Of a DNA stretch of 21,287 bases, positions 2 to 21,287 are shown piece by piece. A model generated the notes under the pieces. The model was given only the letters and a program-made list of their open reading frames with translations. It did not search any database and was not told the DNA's origin. The translations under genes were made by a program, and so were the position numbers. Every line of letters begins with the position of its first letter. Position 1 is the first letter of the stretch. Origin of the DNA: Chiloscyllium plagiosum (taxonomy: Eukaryota); assembly GCF_004010195.1 (NCBI RefSeq), contig NC_057719.1, positions 2,799,317 through 2,820,603 of the forward strand, in the 5' to 3' direction.

Positions 2-287
2 TCAGAGAGAGCAAAAGCAATTTCGGCTTTCGTAATGACAAATGGGCTATATCAGTTCAAAGTTATGCCATTTGGAATGAAAAACGCTCCAGCCACATTT
101 CAGAGACTAATAAGGTCATTGCCAGGTTACCCAATTGTGAGGTGTACATTGATGACCTGGTGATTGTCAGTCACTCATGGAAGGAACATTTATAGCATTT
201 ATTGGACTTGTTCGATCAGCTTTGAAAGGCAGGTTTGGTGGTAAACCTAGCTAAAAATGAATTTGCCAAATCCCAAGTCACTTTCCT
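2..287 (+). mobile_element. Degraded Ty3/Gypsy LTR-retrotransposon reverse transcriptase fragment
   Basis: Manual translation gives SAFVMTNGLYQFKVMPFGMKNAPATFQRL, a frameshift, then NKVIARLPNCEVYIDDLVIVSHSWKEHL*HLLDLFDQL*KAGLVVNLAKNEFAKSQVTFL. It has the MPFG..NAP.TFQ and YIDD motifs of Gypsy RT, two stops and one frameshift. It ends abruptly at the CR1 junction. Confidence 0.9.
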
Positions 288-3689: not shown

Positions 3690-6530
3690 TTGAGGTGTGT
3701 CTATTTTAATGCATGAGTATCAGGAATAAGGGTGACAAACTCAAAACTTGGATCAGCACTTGGAACTATGATGCTGTGGCCATTATGGAGACTTAGATAT
3801 CACAAGGGCAGAAATGGTTGTTAGATGTTCCAGGGTTTGCATGTTTCAAAAGGAATGGAGGGGAAGATAAAAGAGGTGGGTGAGCAGCATTGTTAATCAG
3901 GGACAGTGTCCCAGTTGCAGAAATGGAGATCTTCGAGGAGGATTTGTCTACAGAGTCAGTGTGGGTGGAAGTCAGAAACAGGAAAGGAGCAGTCACTTTA
4001 TTGGGAGTTTTATATCGGCCCCGCAAAGGCAACAGAGGCACAGAGGAGCAGATTGGGCGGCAGATTTTGGAAATGTGCAGAAGTAACAGGGTTGTTGTCC
4101 TGGGTGACTGTAACTTCCCTAATATCGATTTGAACCTTAGTTCATATAGTTTGGATGGAGCAGTTTTTGTCAGATGTGTCCAGGAAGGGTTCCTGATGCA
4201 ATACGTAGATAGGCCAACTAGAGAAGAGGCCATATTGGATTTGGTGCTTAGCAACAAACCAAGCCAGGTGTCATATTACTCGGTGACAGAGCATTTTAGT
4301 GATAGTGATCACATCTCCCTGACCTTTACTATTGTTATGGAGACAGATAGGAGCAGACTGTATGGGCAAGTATTTAACTAGGGGAAGGGGAATTACAACG
4401 CAATTAGGCAGGAACTGGGGCAACTAAATTGGGAACAGATGTTCTCGGGGAAATGCACAATAGAAATGTGGAGATTGTTTAGGAAGCACCTGCTGATAGC
4501 GCTAGTCAGGTTTGTCCTACTGAGCAAGAAAGGGATGGTAGGTTGAAAGAATCTTGGGTAAAAAGAGATGTGGAAAATCAGATCAAGAGGAAGAAGGAAG
4601 CTTACTTAAGGTTGAGAAGCAAGGATCAGATGGAGCTCTAGAAGGTTACAAAGTAGTCAGGAAGGAACTGAAGAATGGACTTAAGAGAGCTAGAAGGGGG
4701 CATGAGGAAGGTTTAGTGGGTAGGATTAAGGAAAACGCTGAGGAATTGTACACTTATGTGAGGAACAACATCATGGCCAGAGTGAGGATACTGCCAATCA
4801 GGGTTAGTGGAGGGAACTTGCGCGTGGAATTGGAGAGAGTCTGGGAGGTTCTTAATGAATACTTTGCTTCAGTATTCACTATTGAGAGGGACGTTGATGT
4901 TTCTGAGGACTGCGTGAAACAGACTGAATAACCTAGAACAGGTTGATATTAGGAAGGAGGATGTGTTGAAAATTTTGAAAAATGTAAGGGTACATAAATC
5001 CCCTGGACCAGACGGGATATACCCTAGGTTATTACAGAAAGTGAGGGAAGAAATTGCTGCGCTTTTAGTGATGATCTTTGTGTCCTTTCTGCCCACTGAA
5101 GTAGTGCCAGATAATTGGAGGGTGGCAAATGTTATTCTCTTGTTCAAGAAAGGGAAGAGGGATAATCCAGGGAATTACAGACCAGTAAGTCTTACATCAG
5201 TGGTGGGCAAAAGTAGATTAGATTAGATTAGATTATTTACAGTGTGGAAACAGGCCCTTCGGCCCAACAAGTCCACACCGACCCACCGAAGCGCAACCCA
5301 CCCATTCCTCTACATTGGAGAGTACTGGAAAGGATTCTGACAGGCAGGATTTAAGATTACTTGGAAAGCCATAGTTTGATTAGAGATAGTCAGCATGGCT
5401 TTGTGAGGGGCAGGTTATGCCTCACAACGTCAATGAATTCTTTGAGGATGTGACAAAAACATGTTGATGAAGGTAGAGCAGTGGATGTGGTGTACATGGA
5501 TTTTAGCAAGGTGGTAGGCTCATTCAGAAGGTAAGGAGGTATGGGATACTGGGAAACTTGTTTGTATAGATACAGAATTGGCTGGCCCATAGAAGACGGT
5601 GGTAGATGGAAACTATTCACCCTGGAGCTCGGTGATCAATGGTGTTCCGCAGGGATTGGTTCTGGGACCTCTGCTCTTTGTGACTTTTATAAATGATTTG
5701 GATGAGGAAGTGGAAGGGTAGGTTAGTAAGTATGCCAATGAAACGAAAGTTGATAGACTTGCGTATAGTCTGGAGGGCTGTTGTAGTTTGCAACAGGACA
5801 TTGACAGGATGTGGAACTTGGCTAAGTGGCAGGTGGAGTTCAACCTGGAAAAGTGTGAAGTGATTCACTTTGGAAGGTCAAATTTGAATGCAGAATACAT
5901 GGTCATAGGCAGGATTCTTGGCAGTGCGGAAGCACAGAGGGATCTTGAGGTCCATGTCCATAGATCCCTCAAAGTTGCCATCCAGGTTGTGAAGAAGGCG
6001 TATGGTGTGTTGGCTTTCATCAACAGGGAGATTGAGTTTAAGAGCCACGAGTTTATGCTGCAACTCCATAGAATCCTGGTTAGACCACACTTGGAATATT
6101 GTGTTCAGTTCCTGTTGCTTCATTATAGGAAGGATGTGTAAGCTTCAAGACGATGCAGAGGGGATTTACTAGGATGCTGCCTGGACTGGAGGGCATATCT
6201 TATGAAGGAAGATTGAGGGAGCTAGGGTTGTTCTCATTGGAGCAAAGGAGAATGAGAGCTGACTTGATAGAGGTATACAAGAAGTTGAGAGCCAGAGATG
6301 AGTGGATATCCAGGGACTTTTTCTCATGGCGGAATCATTTATCACAAGGGGCATAACTTTAAGGTGATTGGAAGAAGGTTTTGGGGAGATATCAGAGGTA
6401 GGTTCTTTACACAGAAAGTGGTGGGTGCATAGAATGCACTGCTAGCAGTGATATTAGAGTCAGGTATATTAGGGACATTTAAGTAACTCTTGGATAGGCA
6501 CATGGAAGTTAGTACAATGAAGGGTATGTA
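3690..6530 (+). pseudogene. CR1 ORF2 (APE endonuclease plus reverse transcriptase), disrupted
   Basis: ORF track pieces 3890..4381, 4554..4931, 4963..5226, 5788..6141 and 6153..6356 appear in canonical CR1 ORF2 order. Confidence 0.9.
5214..5315 (-). mobile_element. 5'-truncated HE1-type SINE/CR1 3' end with (TCTAA)n tail, inserted in CR1 ORF2
   Basis: TAGATTAGATTAGATTA...TACAGTGTGGAAACAGGCCCTTCGGCCCAACAAGTCCACACCGACC is nearly identical to 13217-13325. It interrupts LTSVVGK|VLERIL. Confidence 0.85.
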
Positions 6531-7232
6531 GGTTCGGCTGATCTTAAGAGTAGGGTAAAAGGCTGGCACAACTTTGAGAGCCAAAGGGCCTGTACTGTTC
6601 TATGTTTGGGATTCATGGGTCCTTGGCAGTATGAATTAGAAGTTGGCTAAATGAGAGGAAACATAGATGGAATAGATGGGGCATTTCTCAGATTGGAGAA
6701 GTGTTAAAAGTGATGTTTCCCAGGGGTCACTGTTGGTGCCCTTGCTTTTTCTGATTTCTATTAATAATGTAGGCATGGTTGTATGGTTCACATGATACTA
6801 AGCTAGGGAGCATGATGCTGAACAACGTCAGGGAGACAGTAATAGGTTGGTTAAATAGGCAGACAACTGGCAGATGAGTTTCAATGTTGAAAAATGTCAG
6901 GTAGGGAATTTTGGTAGAAGAAGCAGAGGCACAATACAGGCTCAATGGTTCAGCTTTAAGGGAAATGCAGAAGCAGAGGGACCTTGGGGTTCATGTGCAT
7001 GATTCTCTGATTATGGCCAGGCAAGTTTAAGCAGTTGTCAAGAAGGCCTTTAGGATCTTTGGGTTTATAAATAAAGGCAAAGGGTATAAAAGCAAAGAAC
7101 TAATGTTAAACCTGTACAAATCATTGGTCAGAATACATTTGGAGCATTGTGTTCAGTTTTGGGTACCTTATTTAAGTAAAGTTAAAAATCACACAACACC
7201 AGGTTATAGTCCAACAGGTTTAATCGGAAGCA

Positions 7233-7267
7233 CACAAGCTTTCGGAACGACGCTCCTTCATCAGGTG
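7233..7267 (-). ncRNA. Minimal type-I hammerhead ribozyme motif, core intact
   Basis: The minus strand reads CAC CUGAUGA A GGAGC GUC GUUCC GAAA GC UU GUG. Stem I is CAC/GUG, the core is CUGAUGA/GAAA, stem II has 5 bp, stem III is the palindrome AGCU, and the NUH triplet is CUU. Confidence 0.72.
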
Positions 7268-7468
7268 ATAGTGGAGGGCTCGATCGTAACACAGAATATA
7301 TAGCAAAAATTTACAGTGTGATGTAACTGAAATTATACATTGAAAAATTGATTGTCTGTTAAGCCTTTCATCTGTTAGAATACAGTGATAGTTTCACTTC
7401 TTTCATGTGTAAATCACAAAACCCTTTTTTTAAAGTTGCATGTGTGTTAGGATTGAGCCCTCCACTAC

Positions 7469-7503
7469 CACCTGATGAAGGAGCGTCGCTCCAAAAGCTA
7501 GTG
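7469..7503 (+). ncRNA. Hammerhead motif copy with G12->A mutation (probably inactive)
   Basis: CAC CTGATGA A GGAGC GTC GCTCC AAAA GC TA GTG. GAAA has become AAAA at 7493. Confidence 0.6.
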
Positions 7504-7518
7504 TGCTTCCAATTAAAC

Positions 7519-7984
7519 NNNNNNNNNNNNNNNNNNNNNNNNNNNNNNNNNNNNNNNNNNNNNNNNNNNNNNNNNNNNNNNNNNNNNNNNNNNNNNNNNN
7601 NNNNNNNNNNNNNNNNNNNNNNNNNNNNNNNNNNNNNNNNNNNNNNNNNNNNNNNNNNNNNNNNNNNNNNNNNNNNNNNNNNNNNNNNNNNNNNNNNNNN
7701 NNNNNNNNNNNNNNNNNNNNNNNNNNNNNNNNNNNNNNNNNNNNNNNNNNNNNNNNNNNNNNNNNNNNNNNNNNNNNNNNNNNNNNNNNNNNNNNNNNNN
7801 NNNNNNNNNNNNNNNNNNNNNNNNNNNNNNNNNNNNNNNNNNNNNNNNNNNNNNNNNNNNNNNNNNNNNNNNNNNNNNNNNNNNNNNNNNNNNNNNNNNN
7901 NNNNNNNNNNNNNNNNNNNNNNNNNNNNNNNNNNNNNNNNNNNNNNNNNNNNNNNNNNNNNNNNNNNNNNNNNNNNNNNNNNNN
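7519..7984. other. Assembly gap (466 N)
   Basis: Run of N. Confidence 1.
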
Positions 7985-8181
7985 CATTGTTAACAGCTAA
8001 CCCGAGAATGCAACTTTAAAAAAAGGGTTTTGTGATTTACACATGAAAGAAGTGAAACTATCACTGTATTCTAACAGATGAAAGGCTTAACAGACAATCA
8101 ATTTTTCAATGTATAATTTCAGTTACATCACACTGTAAATTTTTGCTATAAATTCTGTGTTACGATCGAGCCCTCCACTAT

Positions 8182-8213
8182 CACCTGATGGAGCGTCGCT
8201 CCAAAAGCTAGTT
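8182..8213 (+). ncRNA. Degenerate hammerhead motif copy
   Basis: CAC CTGATG GAGC GTC GCTCC AAAA GCTA GTT. It has a 3-nt deletion in the core and G12->A at 8203. Confidence 0.45.
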
Positions 8214-8563
8214 TGCTTCCAATTAAACCTGTTGGACTATAACCTGGTGTTGTGTGATTTTTAACTTTGTCCACCCCAGTCCAACACCGGCATCTCCAAA
8301 TCATTATTTAAGTAAGGTTGTTAAAAGCCCTAGAAGAGACAGAGCAAAGGAGATTTACCCAAATGATACCAGGACTGAGACATTTTCGATATAAGGAAAG
8401 ATTAGATAAATTAGGCTTATTCTCCTTGGAGCAGAGAAGATTAACAGGTGATTTTTTTTGACATGTTCAAAATTATGAACAATTTTGACAGGACAAAAAA
8501 GGATATTCTGCTTCACTAGTTAGTGTGGCAGTAACTAGGGATCACAATTTCAAGATTGTCAAC

Positions 8564-8787
8564 GTTAAAAATCACACAATACCACCATACAGTCCAACAG
8601 ATTTATTTGGAGTGTTGCAACTGCAATCCTGTTGCTATAAATTCTGTGTTGTATGCTTCTGCTCCATAACCACCTGAAGAAGCAGCTCTTCGAAAGCTAG
8701 TACCTCCAAATAAACCTATTGGACTATAACTTGGTATTCTGTGATTTTTAACTTTGTCCATTCCAGTCCAACTCCGGCACCTCCAAA
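8564..8787 (+). mobile_element. Short Penelope-like insertion (older relative of family 1) with inverted arm, degenerate hammerhead and 14-bp TSD
   Basis: 8564-8611 is an inverted copy of ~8705-8753. The motif CAC CTGAAGA...C GAAA GCTA GT lies at 8671-8702. It has the same tail as 8269-8303. TSD TCAAGATYGTCAAC at 8550-8563 and 8788-8801. Confidence 0.78.
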
Positions 8788-9152
8788 TCAAGATCGTCAA
8801 CAAGAGAATTAGGAGTGAGATGAGGAAAAACGTCTTAGAGAGTTATTCGGATTTGGAATGCACTGCCTTGGAGAGAAGTGGACGCGGATTCCATATGATT
8901 CTGCAAAAGAGATCTGGATATTTATTTGAAAGTGATAAATTCAGAAGGCTATGCAGATAGGGCTGGAGAAAGGGACTAGCTGGGTATCTCTTTCAGGAAC
9001 CGGTGCAGACATGATGCATCAAATGGCCTCCTTTTGTACCATAAAATTCCATGATTCTAACTCAAGACACCAGTCCTGTTTGAGCTGAAATCTCAAACTT
9101 TCAGCAATTCTCTACTCTGTGGCAACCACTCACCCTTTGACTATCTCACGTT

Positions 9153-12049: not shown

Positions 12050-12560
12050 ACACGTGGAGAGTATCTCCAATACGTTCACATTTTTCCTACAGTATGACAC
12101 CCAGAATTGTATACAATACTCTAACTGAGGTCTAGCAAGTGTCTTGCTTTTGTACTCTCTGCTTCTATCAATAAAGCCCAGAATACTGTATGCTTTATTA
12201 ACTGCTCTATTTATCCAGTTGCCTTCAATAATCATTGCAAGCAGACAGCCAAGTTGCTCTGCTGCTGCACAATTAAGCACGGTAACTCCTGATGTGTATT
12301 GATTACCCATGTTCTTCCTTCCAAAATGCATCACCTCACACTTCCCTGCATTGAACTTCATTTGCCATCCATGCGCCCAATCCATCAACGTATCTGTACA
12401 CTTTTGAAGATCAGCATCATCTCCCTCACAATTTACAATGCATTCAAGTTTCATATCATCTGCAAACCTTGAAACTATCCCTTGCGATACCAAGATGTAG
12501 ATGATTAATATACATCAGAAAAAGAAAGGATCTGAATTCTAACCTGTGGGGAACATTAGA
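12050..12560 (-). mobile_element. Old CR1 RT fragment
   Basis: ORF 12038..12493 contains SRFADDMKL, WQMKFNAGKCEVMHFG and RPQLEYCIQFW. Confidence 0.85.
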
Positions 12561-12735
12561 TTAGAGTTCTGATCCTTGGTTTTCCTAATGTATACTCAAT
12601 TACAAACTTCACCACAAACATTCCTCCAGATCGAAAAATACCAATTGATCATTATACGATATGTCAGCACTTGGAAAGAATTGATGAATCAGGATATTTT
12701 TGAAGAGGCATCCAGCAGTGCTGATATTGGTAATG

Positions 12736-12939
12736 GGAGAAAGTGAGGACTGCAAATGCTGGAGACCAGTGTCGTGAGTGTGGTGCTGGAAAAGCATTGC
12801 AGGTCAGGGAGTATCCGAGGGGCATGAGAATCGACATTTCGGGCATAAGCCCTTCATCAGGAATATTTGAAACGTCAATTCTCCTGCTCCTCCGATGTTG
12901 CCTGACATGCTGTGCTTTTCTAGCAACACACTCTCCTCT
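12736..12939 (-). mobile_element. Penelope-like palindromic mini-element (family 2) with hammerhead motif and 15-bp TSD
   Basis: 12775-12840 is an inverted match to 12869-12934. A tail at 12736-~12774 is present on one side only. TSD CTGATWTTGGTAATG at 12721-12735 and 12940-12954. Confidence 0.78.
12829..12864 (-). ncRNA. Minimal type-I hammerhead ribozyme motif (family 2)
   Basis: The minus strand reads AUUC CUGAUGA A GGGC UUAU GCCC GAAA UG UC GAUU, with a GUC cleavage triplet. The opposite arm keeps the palindromic stem III as GAAACGTC at 12869-12876. Confidence 0.7.
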
Positions 12940-13216
12940 CTGATTTTGGTAATGTACTTGCAATGGTTTCAATGGATTTTAGCAAGACATCGGAAAGGCT
13001 CCAACATGCAGACTTCAAGAAAGTTAAGAACCAGTGGGATCTAAGGCAAAGTGTCATGTTGAATCCAAACCAGCTTATGCAGGAAGCAGAGGATGATGGT
13101 AGAGGCATGTTTCTGTGACCAGAAATCAGTTCCAGTGGGGTTCCACAGGGCCCATTACTGAGGTCCTTACTGTTTGTGGTCTACTATGATGATATGGACA
13201 GAAATGTAGGGATATG

Positions 13217-13521
13217 ATTAGATTAGATTACTTACTTACTTACAGTGTGGAAACAGGCCCTTCGGCGCAACAAGTCCACACCGACCCGCCGAAACGCAAA
13301 CCACCCAGACCCAATCCCCTACATTTACCCCTACGGGCAATTTACCATGGCCAATTCACCTAACCTGCACCTTTTTGAACTGTGGGAGGAAACTGGTGCA
13401 CCCGGAGGAAACCCATGCAGACACGGGGGGAATGTGCAAACTCCACACAGTTGCCTGAGGTGGGAATTGAACCCAGGTCTCTGGCACTGTGAGGCAGCAG
13501 TGCTAACCACTGTGCCGCCCA
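13217..13521 (-). mobile_element. HE1-type V-SINE (tRNA head, V domain, CR1-like tail)
   Basis: The minus strand reads GGCGGCACAGTGGTTAGCACTGCTGCCTCACAG, B-box GGTTCAATTCC, V-domain TGTGTGGAGTTTGCACATT...GGGTTTCCTCCGGGTGC, and a (GTAA)n(TCTAA)n tail. Confidence 0.92.
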
Positions 13522-13856: not shown

Positions 13857-15681
13857 AGAACATAGAACAATACAGCACAGAACAGGCCCTTCGGCCCACG
13901 ATGTTGTGCCGAACTTCTAACCTAGATTAAGTACCCATCCATGTACCTATCCAAATGCCGCTTAAAGGTCGCCAATGATTCCGACTCTACCACTCCAACG
14001 GGCAGCGGATTCCATGCCCCCACCACTCTCTGGGTAAAGAACCTACCCCTGACATCTCCCCTATACCTTCCACCCTCCACCTTAAATCTATGTCCCCTTG
14101 TAACACTCTGTTGTACCCGGGGAAAAAGTTTCTGACTGTCTACTCTATCGATTCCTCTGATCATCTTATAAACCTCTATCAAGTCACCCCTCATCCTTCG
14201 CCGTTCCAACGAGAAAAGGCCGAGAACTCTCAACCTATCCTCGTACGACTTCCTCTCCATTCCAGGCAACATCCTGGTAAATCTTCTCTGCACCCTCTAC
14301 AAAGCTTCCACATCTTTCCTAAAGTGAGGCGACCAGAACTGCACACAGTACTCCAACTGTGGCCTAACCAAAGTCCTGTACAGCTGCAACATCACTTCAC
14401 GACTCTTGAATTCAATCCCTCTGCTAATGAACGATAATACTCCATAGGCCTTCTTACAAACTCTATCCACCTGAGTGGCAACCTTCAAAGATCTATGTAC
14501 ATAGACCCCAAGATCACTCTGTTCCTCCACCTGACTAAGAACCCTACCATTAACCCTGTATTCCGCATTCTTATTTGTTCTTCCAAAATGGACAACCTCA
14601 CACTTGGCAGGGTTGAACTCCATCTGCCACTCCTCAGCCCAGCTCTGCATCATATCTAAGTCCCTCTGCAGCCGACAACAGCCCTCCTCACTGTCCACAA
14701 CTCCACCGATCTTCGTATCATCTGCAAATTTACTGACCCACCCTTCGACTCCCTCATCTAAGTCATTAATAAAAATTACAAACAGCAGAGGACCCAGAAC
14801 TGATCCCTGCGGAACTCCACTTGTAACTGGGCTCCAGGCTGAATATCTGCCATCTACCACCACTCTCTGCCTTCGACCGGTTAGCCAGTTTTCTATCCAA
14901 TTGGCCAAATTTCCCTCTATCCCATGCCTCCTGACTTTCCACATAAGCCTACCATGGGGAACCTTATCAAATGCCTTACTAAAATCCATGTACACTACAT
15001 CCACTGCTCTACCCTCATCCACATGCTTAGTCACCTCCTCAAANNNNNNNNNNNNNNNNNNNNNNNNNNNNNNNNNNNNNNNNNNNNNNNNNNNNNNNNN
15101 NNNNNNNNNNNNNNNNNNNNNNNNNNNNNNNNNNNNNNNNNNNNNNNNNNNNNTTCACACTCTCCTCTTTTACAATACGGTCCCACTCGTTCGTAGATAC
15201 TGAAGAGAAGTACTTGTTCAAGACCTCTCCTATCTCTTCCGACTCAATACACAGTCTCCCACTACTGTCCTTGATCGGACCTACCCTCGTTCTCGTCATT
15301 CTCAGGTTTCTCACATACGCATAAAATGCCTTGGGGTTATCCTTGATCCTATCCGCCAACGATTTTTCATGCCCTCTCTTAGCTCTCCTAATCCCTTTCT
15401 TCAGGTCCCTTCTGGCTATCCTGTATCCCTCCACTGCTCTGTCTGAATCCTGTTTCCTCAACCTTATGTAAGCCGCCTTCTTCCTCTTTACCAGACATTC
15501 AACCTCTCTCGTCAACCAAGGCTCCCTCACACGACCATTTCTTTCCTGCCTGATAGGTTCATACATATCATGGACAAGTCGTATCTGCTCTTTGAAAAAG
15601 TTCCACATTTCCACCACATCCTTCCCTGACAGCCTATGCTCCCAACGTATGCTCCTCAAATCCTGCCTTACAGCATCGTAA
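13857..15681 (-). mobile_element. Young 5'-truncated CR1 LINE (ORF2 C-terminal part), TSD TTAAT, internal assembly gap
   Basis: ORFs 15039..15659, 14297..15034 (GVPQGSVLGP, FADDT) and 13922..14293; the last two are separated by a single in-frame TAG. Tail (GTTCTAT)n. TTAAT at 13852-13856 and 15682-15686. Confidence 0.95.
15044..15153. other. Assembly gap (110 N)
   Basis: Run of N. Confidence 1.
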
Positions 15682-19260: not shown

Positions 19261-21287
19261 GATTTTGAGTGCGAGCGCCAGCGGAGGCAAGACAAAGCCG
19301 GAACACTGCAGCTAAGGTAAGGCAGTCTTTTTTAAAAAAAATTACTTACCAGTAGCGGACAGCGGTGTTTTCCCTTTCACAGAAGGAGAGGGAGCAGCGG
19401 GGGAAGTGATGAGGACCAGAGGGGCAGCCGGGAAGGAAAGTAGTGAGTATAAATACTCACCCTTCGACGCCAACGGCCATTTTGAGTGCGAGCACCAGCG
19501 GAGGCAAGACGAAGCCGGAACACTGCAGCTAAGTTAAGGCAGTTTTTAAAAAAAAATTACTTACCGGTAGCGGACAGCGGTGTTTTCCTTTCACAGAAGG
19601 AGCGGGAGCAGTGGGGGAAGTGACGAGGACCAGAGGGGCAGCGGGGAAGGAAAGCAGTGAGTATAAAAGCGCGCAGGAGAGGAATAGTTATTGCAGAGCA
19701 GAGCAATAGTTATTGGGACTCGATAGTTCGGGGCACAGATAGGCGGTTTTGTGGGGGCGAGAGAGACTCACGTTTGGTATGTTGCCTCCCAGGTAGGAAG
19801 AGAGCTGAGGATGTTAGACAGGCTTTCAAGGAGCTAGGTTGGAAGCTCAGAGTTAGAACCAACAGAGTTGTTGTCTCTGGTTTGTTACCCGTGCTACGTG
19901 ATAGAGAGTAGAGGAATAGGGAGAGAGAACAGTTAAATGCGTGGCTACAGGAATGGTGCAGGAGGGAGGGATTCCGGTATCTGGATAACTGGGGTTCTTT
20001 CTGGGGAAGGTGGGACCTCTATAAACAGGATGGTCTACACCTGAACCTGAGGGGCACCAGTATCCTTGGGGGGATGTTAGCTAGTGCTCTTGGGGAGGGT
20101 TTAAACTAACTCTGCAGTGGCATGGGAACCTAGACTGTAGCTTTAGGGTGCAGGACCTGGAGTGTAGGGAGGTTAGGAACATGGCATCAATCTCAAAGGA
20201 GGTGCCTGTAAACAGGAAAGTGGCTTGAAGTGTGTATACTTCAATGAAAGAAGTTTACGAAATAAGGTAGGTGAACTTGCAGCGTGGGTTGGTACCTGGG
20301 ATTTCGATGTTGTGGCTATGGGAGACATGGGTAGAACAGGGACAGGATTGGCTGTTGCAGGTTCCAGGGTTTAAGTGTTTTAGTAGGGTCAGAGGTGGGG
20401 GTAAAAGAGGGCGAGGTGTGGCACTGCTTGTCAAAGATAGGACGATGGAAAGGACGATGGAAGAAGTCTCGCCATCTGAGGTAGTTTGGGCTGAGGTTAG
20501 GAACAGGAAAGGTGAGGTCACCCTGTTAGGAGTTTTCTACAGGCCTCCTAATAGTCCTAGAGACGTAGAAGAAAGGATTGCGAGGACGATTCAGGAAAAG
20601 AGTGAAAGTAATAGAGTGATTGTTGTGGGGGACTTTAACTTTCCAGATATTGACTGGGAAAGTTATAGCTCGAGTTCGTTAGATGGATCGGTGTTTGTCC
20701 AATGAGTGCAGGAGGTTTCCTGACACAATATGTAGACAGGCCAACAAGAGGTGAGGCCATACTGGATTTGGTTCTGGGTAACGAACCAGGCCAGGTGTTA
20801 GAATTGGAGGTAGGTGAGCACTTTGGGGACAGTGACCACAATTCAGTGACTTTTACTCTAGTGGTGGAGAGGGATAAGTGTGCACTGCAGGGCAAGAGTT
20901 ATAGCTGGGGGCAGGGAAAGTATGATGTGGTGAGGCACGACTTAGGATGCGTGGCTTGGAAAAGTAGGCTTCAAGGGAAGCGCGCCATTGATATGTGGAG
21001 CTTGTTCAAGGAGCAACTATTGAGTGTCATTGATAAGTATGTACCTTTCAGGCAGGGAGGAAAGGGTCGTGTGAGGGAGCTGTGGTTTAATAAGGAATTG
21101 GAATCCCTTGTTAAAGGGAAAAGGGCGGCCTATGTAAAGATGAGGCGTGAAGGTTCAATTGGGGCGATTGAGAGTTATAAGGTAGCCAGGAAGGACCTGA
21201 AGAGAGAGCTAAAAGCAGCAAGGAGGGGACATGAAAGGACCTTAGTTGGTAGGATTAGGGAAAACCCTAAGGCTTTCTACAGGTATG
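19261..21287 (+). mobile_element. CR1 LINE with tandem 5' monomers, internally deleted ORF1 and ORF2 endonuclease; runs off the window
   Basis: ORF1 remnants DSIVRG, VCCLPG, VSGLLP and DGLHLN. ORF2 runs from ~20225 (LKCVYFN, ETW, FYRPP, GDFNFP, LDLVLG, SDH, IRENPKAFY). Confidence 0.92.
19262..19667 (+). repeat. Tandem ~217-bp GC-rich 5'UTR monomers (about 1.9 copies)
   Basis: ATTTTGAGTGCGAGC starts at 19262 and again at 19479. The units align closely through GTGAGTATAAA (19443 and 19657). Confidence 0.92.

What the first reader, a model, noticed from the sequence alone, without database searches (positions are those of the whole stretch)
7168..8315. Palindromic, hammerhead-bearing, apparently non-coding retroelement inserted with a 12-bp TSD
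Seen: ~260-bp inverted arms (7178-7441 and 8008-8268), an extra same-strand unit at 7443-7518, three hammerhead-like cores and the TSD TTATTTAAGTAA. Removing the insert restores the host CR1 sequence. Established: Penelope-like elements carry minimal type-I hammerheads in their pLTRs and form inverted or tandem pLTR structures. Inference: this is a non-autonomous, retrozyme-like PLE derivative of sharks, because even with the 466-N gap it is too short for RT plus GIY-YIG.
Basis: partly seen in the sequence, partly recalled or inferred. Interest (0 to 1): 0.72.

Follow-up and report, generated by a model that had tools for sequence, protein, structure and literature searches.

The report
Truncated fold-back Penelope retroelement copy
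This is a real but ordinary insertion: the cut-down, mirror-image end pieces of a very common jumping gene of sharks (a Penelope-like retrotransposon), laid down in a pattern already described for this class, rather than a separate ribozyme-driven RNA element.

Summary
The anatomy is real: a 12-bp target duplication inside an old CR1, a 264-bp inverted arm, an inner direct unit, a 466-N gap, and a direct unit with a 35-nt unmirrored tail. This matches the published insertion pattern of endonuclease-bearing Penelope-like elements.

The repeat is very high-copy. Its 3' ends pile at two sites about 36 nt apart in three runs. Protein evidence ties it to a coding family: a bamboo-shark gene model joins this repeat to a Penelope-type RT, shark relatives carry RT, a Neptune-type zinc-finger linker and GIY-YIG (53, 57), and the tail reads in frame into that ORF's start (59).

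The retrozyme reading fails its tests. There is no tandem array, the hammerhead is the minimal type, and only 1 of 3 cores is intact, the antisense one (3, 28). Gap content, the left junctions and expression remain untested.

Verdict: a dead, truncated, 5'-inverted copy of a shark Neptune-type element. The scan has already found this pattern on other DNA of the same genome.

The parts
7168..7179 (+). Left target-site duplication, TTATTTAAGTAA (11 of 12 A/T)
   Evidence: exact, only two copies in the window
7180..7441 (-). Inverted, tail-less, 5'-truncated pLTR/3'-UTR arm (match starts at 7178, overlapping the TSD by 2 nt)
   Evidence: 96.6% to 8008-8268
7233..7267 (-). Intact minimal type-I hammerhead core: CUGAUGA, extra A, 5-bp helix II, GAAA, palindromic AGCU, UH, 3-bp helix I
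   Evidence: only descriptor hit in the window, 0 in 200 shuffles
7443..7518 (+). Inner direct pLTR fragment starting 29 nt upstream of its hammerhead core and running into the gap; diverged from both arms
   Evidence: 7 mismatches in 76 nt to the left arm
7469..7503 (+). Broken hammerhead (GAAA>AAAA)
7519..7984 (.). Assembly gap, 466 N; true length and content unknown
   Evidence: the window's other gap appears about 310 nt too short
7985..8268 (+). Direct 3'-UTR/pLTR unit; family sequence right up to the gap edge
   Evidence: summed contig depth 0.35 million at 7985-8018 in X2
8182..8213 (+). Broken hammerhead (3-nt deletion, GAAA>AAAA, helix I G>T); most family contigs carry the intact letters
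8269..8303 (+). 35-nt tail without a mirror; reads in frame into the family ORF start (A of the inferred ATG at 8303)
8304..8315 (+). Right target-site duplication
6900..7167 (+). Host: decayed CR1-type LINE ORF2, left of the insertion (extent examined, not its full length)
8316..8549 (+). Host: same CR1, right of the insertion
8550..8801 (.). Second, older fold-back insertion of a related family in the same CR1: short inverted arm, direct unit with decayed core and tail, 14-bp imperfect TSD (8550-8563 / 8788-8801, 13 of 14 identical)
   Evidence: also held by organism B (pieces 23 and 24)

Best explanation
A dead-on-arrival, 5'-truncated and 5'-inverted insertion of an autonomous, high-copy shark Penelope-like retrotransposon of Neptune type. 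Mechanism: (1) a tandem or partial-tandem source is transcribed, and its RT/GIY-YIG protein binds the RNA near the pLTR/ORF-start junction (from the literature; family ORF shown here only through proteins). (2) The endonuclease makes staggered nicks 12 nt apart in an AT-rich stretch of an old CR1 (TSD shown; enzyme inferred). (3) Reverse transcription starts at two internal sites about 35 nt apart, one giving the tailed direct unit and one the tail-less inverted arm (two 3'-end clusters shown family-wide; the two start sites are shown in vitro only for the anole element). (4) The two cDNAs stop early and are joined head to head (inferred). The arms are near-identical and share a minority family variant, so they come from one template or one subfamily; the inner unit differs and comes from another pLTR (upstream pLTR of the source, a template jump, or a later nested insertion). 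(5) The hammerheads are passengers of the pLTR; two of the three have decayed, so this copy is not expected to release a unit RNA (inferred).
For: Architecture equals the published one: adjacent inverted 5'-truncated copy, partial tandem, 30-40 bp tail (PMC8557442); two direct plus one inverted pLTR, 9-10 bp TSD, 31-bp tail in Adineta (PMC3846280); 71,215 / 49,480 / 11,191 contigs laid from X2 / X9 / X15; summed depth falls from 9.3 million (8223-8256) to 0.35 million (7985-8018) in X2 against 13-18 for flank contigs; loose 3' ends at 8265-8268 and 8302-8304 in all three runs, with AT-rich, low-agreement continuations; family loose-end consensus carries an intact core. Link to a coding element: P0001 (Chiloscyllium punctatum gene model) holds the antisense pLTR plus tail (77% over 53 aa), a Penelope-type RT and a sense pLTR peptide; shark RT relatives at 79-88%; P0107 has DKG, RT, CxxxxCxxC linker and C-terminal GIY-YIG region. 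The tail frame matches the 14 residues before the ORF Met of P0128 (8 of 14 identical; 4 of 200,000 anchored shuffles; 2 of 20,768 window 14-mers reach the score, both tails). Loose ends after 8304 begin GACTA in three runs, consistent with ATG at 8303.
Against: No DNA sequence of a full element was obtained: the pLTR-to-ORF link rests on two automatic gene models. P0001 is probably spliced and could join separate loci; P0128 comes from an unnamed organism. Unanchored, the tail/P0128 match is weak (13 of 300 shuffles). The depth gradient is not a copy number and partly reflects other subfamilies that share only the 3' end. Only 18 of 1,732 loose-end rows and 15 of 286 joint rows were displayed. 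The gap is unknown, and the inner unit's origin is unresolved. The Pfam copy used gave no GIY-YIG hit for P0002 or P0003 and a sub-threshold one for P0004; the domain call rests on P0005 (above cut-off) and on aligned motifs.
Confidence: 0.72

Rival explanations
1. The direct part (7443-8303) is a copy of an internally deleted, non-autonomous mini-element: two direct hammerhead-bearing pLTRs about 0.7 kb apart, mobilised as a unit by the Neptune protein, possibly through a self-cleaved unit-length or circular RNA.
For: Two sense cores lie 713 nt apart at the nominal gap size (D7); the inner unit starts 29 nt upstream of its core and is diverged from the right unit, as separate pLTRs of a source could be. 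Internally deleted and cargo-carrying derivatives in the same layout are known in Adineta, and pLTR-derived retrozymes are reported in vertebrates, including one chondrichthyan.
Against: Both sense cores are broken; no tandem array at the locus; the hammerhead is the minimal PLE type, not the canonical retrozyme type; family depth shows a 5'-truncation gradient rather than a fixed unit. No second copy with the same internal junction could be looked for.
Confidence: 0.12
2. The gap is badly underestimated and holds most of a Neptune ORF, making this a near-full-length copy in the Pen2a_Av layout (inverted pLTR, pLTR, ORF, pLTR plus tail).
For: The order of parts is the same as Pen2a_Av. The window's other gap (110 N) stands where a paralogous CR1 has about 420 nt, so N counts here are unreliable.
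Against: It needs over 2.6 kb (881 aa) against 466 N; the one calibration shows an error of about 310 nt, and assumes no deletion in that CR1 copy.
Confidence: 0.08
3. The flanks, TSD and outer arms are real, but the inner part (interior of the arms, the inner unit) is a collapsed or chimeric assembly of other family copies.
For: The contig breaks inside a very high-copy repeat; the arms differ at 1 of 181 nt in 8008-8188 but at 6 places in 8189-8221; such structures are known to trouble short-read assemblies.
Against: The outermost 43 nt of the arms have no differences either, so divergence does not simply track distance from the flanks; a second fold-back insertion of the same plan 250 nt away is supported by contigs of organism B and, on its right side, by a 0-mismatch contig of X2.
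Confidence: 0.08

Closest known systems
Insertion units of endonuclease-bearing Penelope-like elements (Pen2a_Av and Pen2 derivative of Adineta vaga, PMC3846280; general scheme in PMC8557442)
   Same: Inverted 5'-truncated pLTR next to a direct pLTR, second direct pLTR with a 30-40 nt tail, short TSD.
   Different: Here the inverted arm reaches further upstream than the adjoining direct unit and matches the distal unit better; the span between the direct units is a gap.
Poseidon of Anolis carolinensis (PAc, PMC11167929)
   Same: Two 3' end sites one tail apart, AT-rich targets, minimal hammerhead in the pLTR.
   Different: The PAc ORF starts at hammerhead stem II; here the inferred ORF start is at the end of the tail, about 118 nt past the core. 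The shark relatives have the CX2-5CxxC linker that Penelope/Poseidon lack.
Minimal hammerheads of metazoan PLEs (PMC4209133)
   Same: Extra base between 9 and 10.1, G10.1-C11.1, palindromic 15.2-16.2, short helix I; opposite-strand pairs 100-700 bp apart were already noted in Schistosoma and linked to truncated PLEs.
   Different: 5-bp helix II and 3-bp helix I; no shark example in the supplement file that could be searched.
Non-LTR retrozymes of animals (PMC7229834; bioRxiv 10.64898/2026.07.22.740005)
   Same: Type-I hammerhead, non-coding, 300-nt scale, pLTR-related.
   Different: Those are head-to-tail tandem repeats with at least two complete, typically canonical, hammerheads and abundant circular RNA; this is a TSD-flanked fold-back with one intact antisense minimal core.

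Membership tests
EN+ Penelope-like element insertion (Neptune type) | pLTR with a minimal hammerhead | tested here: met
   Intact in the left arm and in the family loose-end consensus; G at 8203 in 60-83% of summed depth
EN+ Penelope-like element insertion (Neptune type) | Inverted 5'-truncated copy adjacent at the 5' end | tested here: met
   (assembly only; the inner junction was not checked with reads)
EN+ Penelope-like element insertion (Neptune type) | 30-40 nt tail at one end | tested here: met
   35 nt; two 3'-end clusters in three runs
EN+ Penelope-like element insertion (Neptune type) | Short variable TSD in an AT-rich target | tested here: met
   12 bp, 11 of 12 A/T; surrounding 60 nt only 62% AT against 57% for the window
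EN+ Penelope-like element insertion (Neptune type) | Family ORF with RT and C-terminal GIY-YIG adjoining the pLTR | tested here: met
   Indirect, at family level, through gene-model proteins P0001, P0128, P0107; no DNA of a full element seen
EN+ Penelope-like element insertion (Neptune type) | CX2-5CxxC linker between RT and EN (Neptune and Nematis) | tested here: met
   In shark relatives P0105, P0107, P0108, P0133; criterion from PMC8557442. No tree against named Neptune references was built
EN+ Penelope-like element insertion (Neptune type) | ORF present in this copy (autonomy) | not testable with these tools
   Gap 7519-7984; no genome held
Animal non-LTR retrozyme | [quoted passage not shown] | tested here: not met
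   Tandem Repeats Finder reports nothing at the locus; caveat: the gap could hide one short tandem junction
Animal non-LTR retrozyme | [quoted passage not shown] | tested here: not met
   Both sense cores broken; criterion
Animal non-LTR retrozyme | Canonical type-I hammerhead with 6-bp helix I and loop interactions | tested here: not met
   Minimal type, 3-bp helix I; no Rfam hammerhead match at E up to 10
Animal non-LTR retrozyme | Abundant unit-length linear and circular RNA | tested here: inconclusive
   Raw RNA run X22 laid 0 reads, which the tool marks as no test; X15 is RNA by guess only
Plant LTR retrozyme | Type-III hammerhead in LTRs and 4-bp TSD | tested here: not met
   Type-I topology, 12-bp TSD (criteria)

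The most novel reading that the evidence does not exclude
7443-8303 is a copy of a shark mini-element: a Neptune deletion derivative bounded by two direct hammerhead pLTRs about 0.7 kb apart that spreads as a fixed unit through self-cleaved, possibly circular, RNA. It would be an animal counterpart of the plant LTR-retrozyme layout and a missing link between PLEs and retrozymes, here inserted with the usual inverted arm.
Probability: 0.12. Interest if true: 0.5.

Novelty: new member of a known kind. Interest (0 to 1): 0.17.

Why it matters
As read here it matters little: one more dead copy of an abundant shark Penelope-like family. It adds modest detail. The family is Neptune-type, its ORF appears to start at the end of the tail, and the two 3'-end clusters show the anole 'two RT start sites' signature in a second PLE clade. 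The arms' common template and unequal lengths fit priming from both nicked strands, which is an open point in PLE transposition. If the gap revealed a fixed two-hammerhead mini-element, it would bear on how retrozymes arise from PLEs.

Tried and rejected
No genome is held for this window, so no copy count or genomic search for full elements was possible. Exact DNA-pattern scans found nothing in viral contigs or metagenome contigs. Rfam gave no hammerhead match; its 17 hits are all below gathering score. No RNA holder was listed, and the raw single-cell RNA run X22 laid 0 reads of about 6% read, which is no test; nothing follows on expression or circles. Cluster look-up for P0001 could not be made. 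No PDB sequence match for P0001. Free folding of the left core, alone or as two copies, gave helix II but not the dimeric hammerhead fold, so dimer activity is not supported by that calculation. No shark description of this family turned up in paper searches or in the supplement files that could be searched; Repbase and Dfam were not available, so this is not evidence that it is unnamed. No host exon was identified: 20 of the window's ORFs were scanned with Pfam, and the 5 with hits were RT or endonuclease pieces of LINEs. The idea that sense-strand cores are lost through selection in a host intron was therefore left untested. DNA-transposon/MITE reading rejected: arms of unequal length with a one-sided tail, 5'-truncation gradient, link to an RT. 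Whether organism B has the first insertion could not be read from the rows displayed.

Full report
1. Observation. The 12-mer TTATTTAAGTAA occurs exactly twice in the window, at 7168 and 8304. Between them lie a left arm (7178-7441) that is the reverse complement of 8008-8268 at 96.6% over 264 columns, an inner direct unit (7443-7518, 90.8% to 8156-8228), a 466-N gap (7519-7984) and a direct unit (7985-8303). Three of 20,000 random draws of two 40-nt stretches shared a 12-mer. With 7180-8315 removed, the flanks read as one decayed CR1 ORF2 and align across the junction with a younger CR1 copy in the window.

Two details change its meaning. First, the last 35 nt of the right unit (8269-8303) have no mirror. 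Second, only one of the three hammerhead cores is intact. The left, antisense core has CUGAUGA, an extra A, a 5-bp helix II, GAAA, palindromic AGCU and a 3-bp helix I; it was the only descriptor hit in the window, against 0 in each of 200 block shuffles. The inner core has GAAA>AAAA; the right core has the same change, a 3-nt deletion and a helix I change.

2. The family. No genome is held, so I used public runs. Of 24 runs listed, 20 hold part of 7986-9000, from organisms coded A to D. Four were laid on 7985-9000: 71,215 contigs from X2, 49,480 from X9 (62% read), 11,191 from X15 and 0 reads from X22. Summed depth in X2 is 9.3 million at 8223-8256, 2.2 million at 8121-8154 and 0.35 million at 7985-8018, against 13-18 for contigs in the unique flank. 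The tool warns that this is not a copy number, and part of the gradient comes from subfamilies that share only the 3' end; it still shows a very abundant repeat that thins towards its 5' side and continues to the gap edge. Among the 18 loose-end rows shown (of 1,732), 3' ends pile at 8265-8268 and 8302-8304 in all three contig runs, followed by AT-rich sequence of low agreement (about 0.36), which is what many independent insertions with and without the tail would give. The family consensus upstream of 8214 carries an intact core, and G at 8203 makes up 60%, 73% and 83% of depth, so the lesions belong to this copy. One X2 contig crosses the right junction without mismatch, with 23 nt inside the element.

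3. Link to a coding element. A 40-aa antisense frame of the left arm found 1 protein among 3 candidates: P0001, a Chiloscyllium punctatum gene model. It holds the antisense pLTR with tail (77% over 53 aa to 8307-8152), then a Penelope-type RT unrelated to the window's CR1 RT, then a sense pLTR peptide (12 of 13 identical to 7450-7488). Its RT part found 31 proteins of similar length at E up to 1e-60, those named being from C. punctatum, Scyliorhinus torazame, Heptranchias perlo and Mustelus asterias, and 102 longer ones at E up to 1e-20. [quoted passage not shown] P0128 begins with 14 residues ahead of the Met that aligns with the N-terminus of full-length P0002 and P0114. These 14 residues match the window's tail frame 8261-8302 at 8 of 14. 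Anchored at that place, 4 of 200,000 shuffles reach the score, and 2 of 20,768 stop-free 14-mers of the window do, namely the tails of this insertion and of its neighbour. Unanchored, the match is weak (13 of 300 shuffles). Loose ends after 8304 begin GACTA in three runs, which puts an ATG at 8303. So the repeat is most likely the 3' UTR, pLTR and tail of an autonomous Neptune-type element. This rests on automatic gene models, not on a DNA sequence of a full element.

4. Comparison with print. PMC8557442 (passages; supplement searched but cut when stored) describes 5'-truncated partial tandems, an adjacent inverted copy and a 30-40 bp tail. PMC3846280 (passages; lead from an earlier scan note) describes two direct pLTRs plus one inverted, 9-10 bp TSDs, a 31-bp tail, a deletion derivative and cargo capture in the same layout. 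PMC11167929 (parts 1-2 of 4) shows both strands nicked and extended, AT-rich targets, two RT start sites that define the tail, and no need for hammerhead cleavage in vitro. PMC4209133 (parts 1-2 of 4; one supplement file not searched) defines the minimal hammerhead and notes opposite-strand pairs 100-700 bp apart. Retrozyme criteria come from PMC7229834 (passages) and bioRxiv 10.64898/2026.07.22.740005 (parts 1-3 of 5). The preprint reports retrozymes in one chondrichthyan; its supplements were not seen and may list this family. PMC6155905 (passages) added nothing on sharks.

5. Mechanism. The best reading is target-primed insertion by the family's own protein: nicks 12 nt apart, cDNA started at the two sites one tail apart, early stop, head-to-head joining. 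The TSD, tail and end clusters are shown; the enzymatic steps are taken from the anole work or inferred. The arms differ at 1 of 181 nt over 8008-8188 and share a G at 8025 that is the minority letter in the family, so they come from one template or subfamily. The inner unit differs from the left arm at 7 of 76 nt and is shorter than it, so the arm was not folded back from the inner unit. The inner unit may be the upstream pLTR of the source, a template jump, a nested insertion or an assembly chimera; I cannot choose. The gap size is soft: the other gap (110 N) sits where a paralogous CR1 has about 420 nt after removing a short insert. A full ORF needs over 2.6 kb, so it is unlikely but not excluded.

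6. Against and unexplained. Six of the seven arm differences fall in 8189-8221, the hammerhead (P about 0.001 under random placement; the window was chosen after seeing the data). One locus cannot separate CpG-rich mutability, homogenisation of the inner arms and assembly effects. The left and inner junctions were outside the laid stretch. Expression and circles are untested.

7. Verdict. Real, Penelope-like, ordinary in kind. It works like, and by the tested features belongs with, insertion units of endonuclease-bearing PLEs. It fails three tested criteria of animal retrozymes. Earlier scan notes on other pieces of the same genome reached the same class; they were used as leads only.

Noticed in passing
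window 8550-8801: Second, older fold-back insertion of a related pLTR family in the same CR1, 250 nt downstream, with tail and 14-bp imperfect TSD. Organism B holds it at the same place, and contigs that skip it (8561 to 8813) exist in X2 and X9, probably paralogous CR1 copies.
   Followed up: partly
window 12776-12933: Third decayed fold-back of a different hammerhead-bearing family (core on the minus strand at 12860, 4-bp helix II); no TSD of 7 nt or more found at its ends.
   Followed up: partly
window 8189-8221 and 7225-7260: Six of seven differences between the two arms fall in the hammerhead; both sense cores are broken and the antisense one is intact.
   Followed up: partly
window 15044-15153: 110-N gap inside a young CR1 ORF2 copy where a paralogue has about 420 nt, so gap sizes here are underestimates or the copy has a deletion.
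   Followed up: yes
window 19262-19667: 214-bp unit in 1.9 tandem copies, 93% identical, just upstream of a CR1-like element.
   Followed up: no
window 5215-5316 and 13210-13510: Two copies of a SINE-like repeat with a TTAGA microsatellite end, each inserted in a CR1-type sequence.
   Followed up: no
window 23-192: Fragment resembling a Gypsy-type LTR retrotransposon RT (tblastn to P0080; the family label is my recall).
   Followed up: no
window 12510-12593: Imperfect hairpin of about 84 nt that draws sub-threshold microRNA matches in Rfam.
   Followed up: no
P0111, P0096, P0103: Database gene models in which Penelope-type RT pieces are fused to host genes (epsin 2 in Heptranchias, collagen XX and a vomeronasal receptor in amphibians); probably annotation artefacts.
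   Followed up: no
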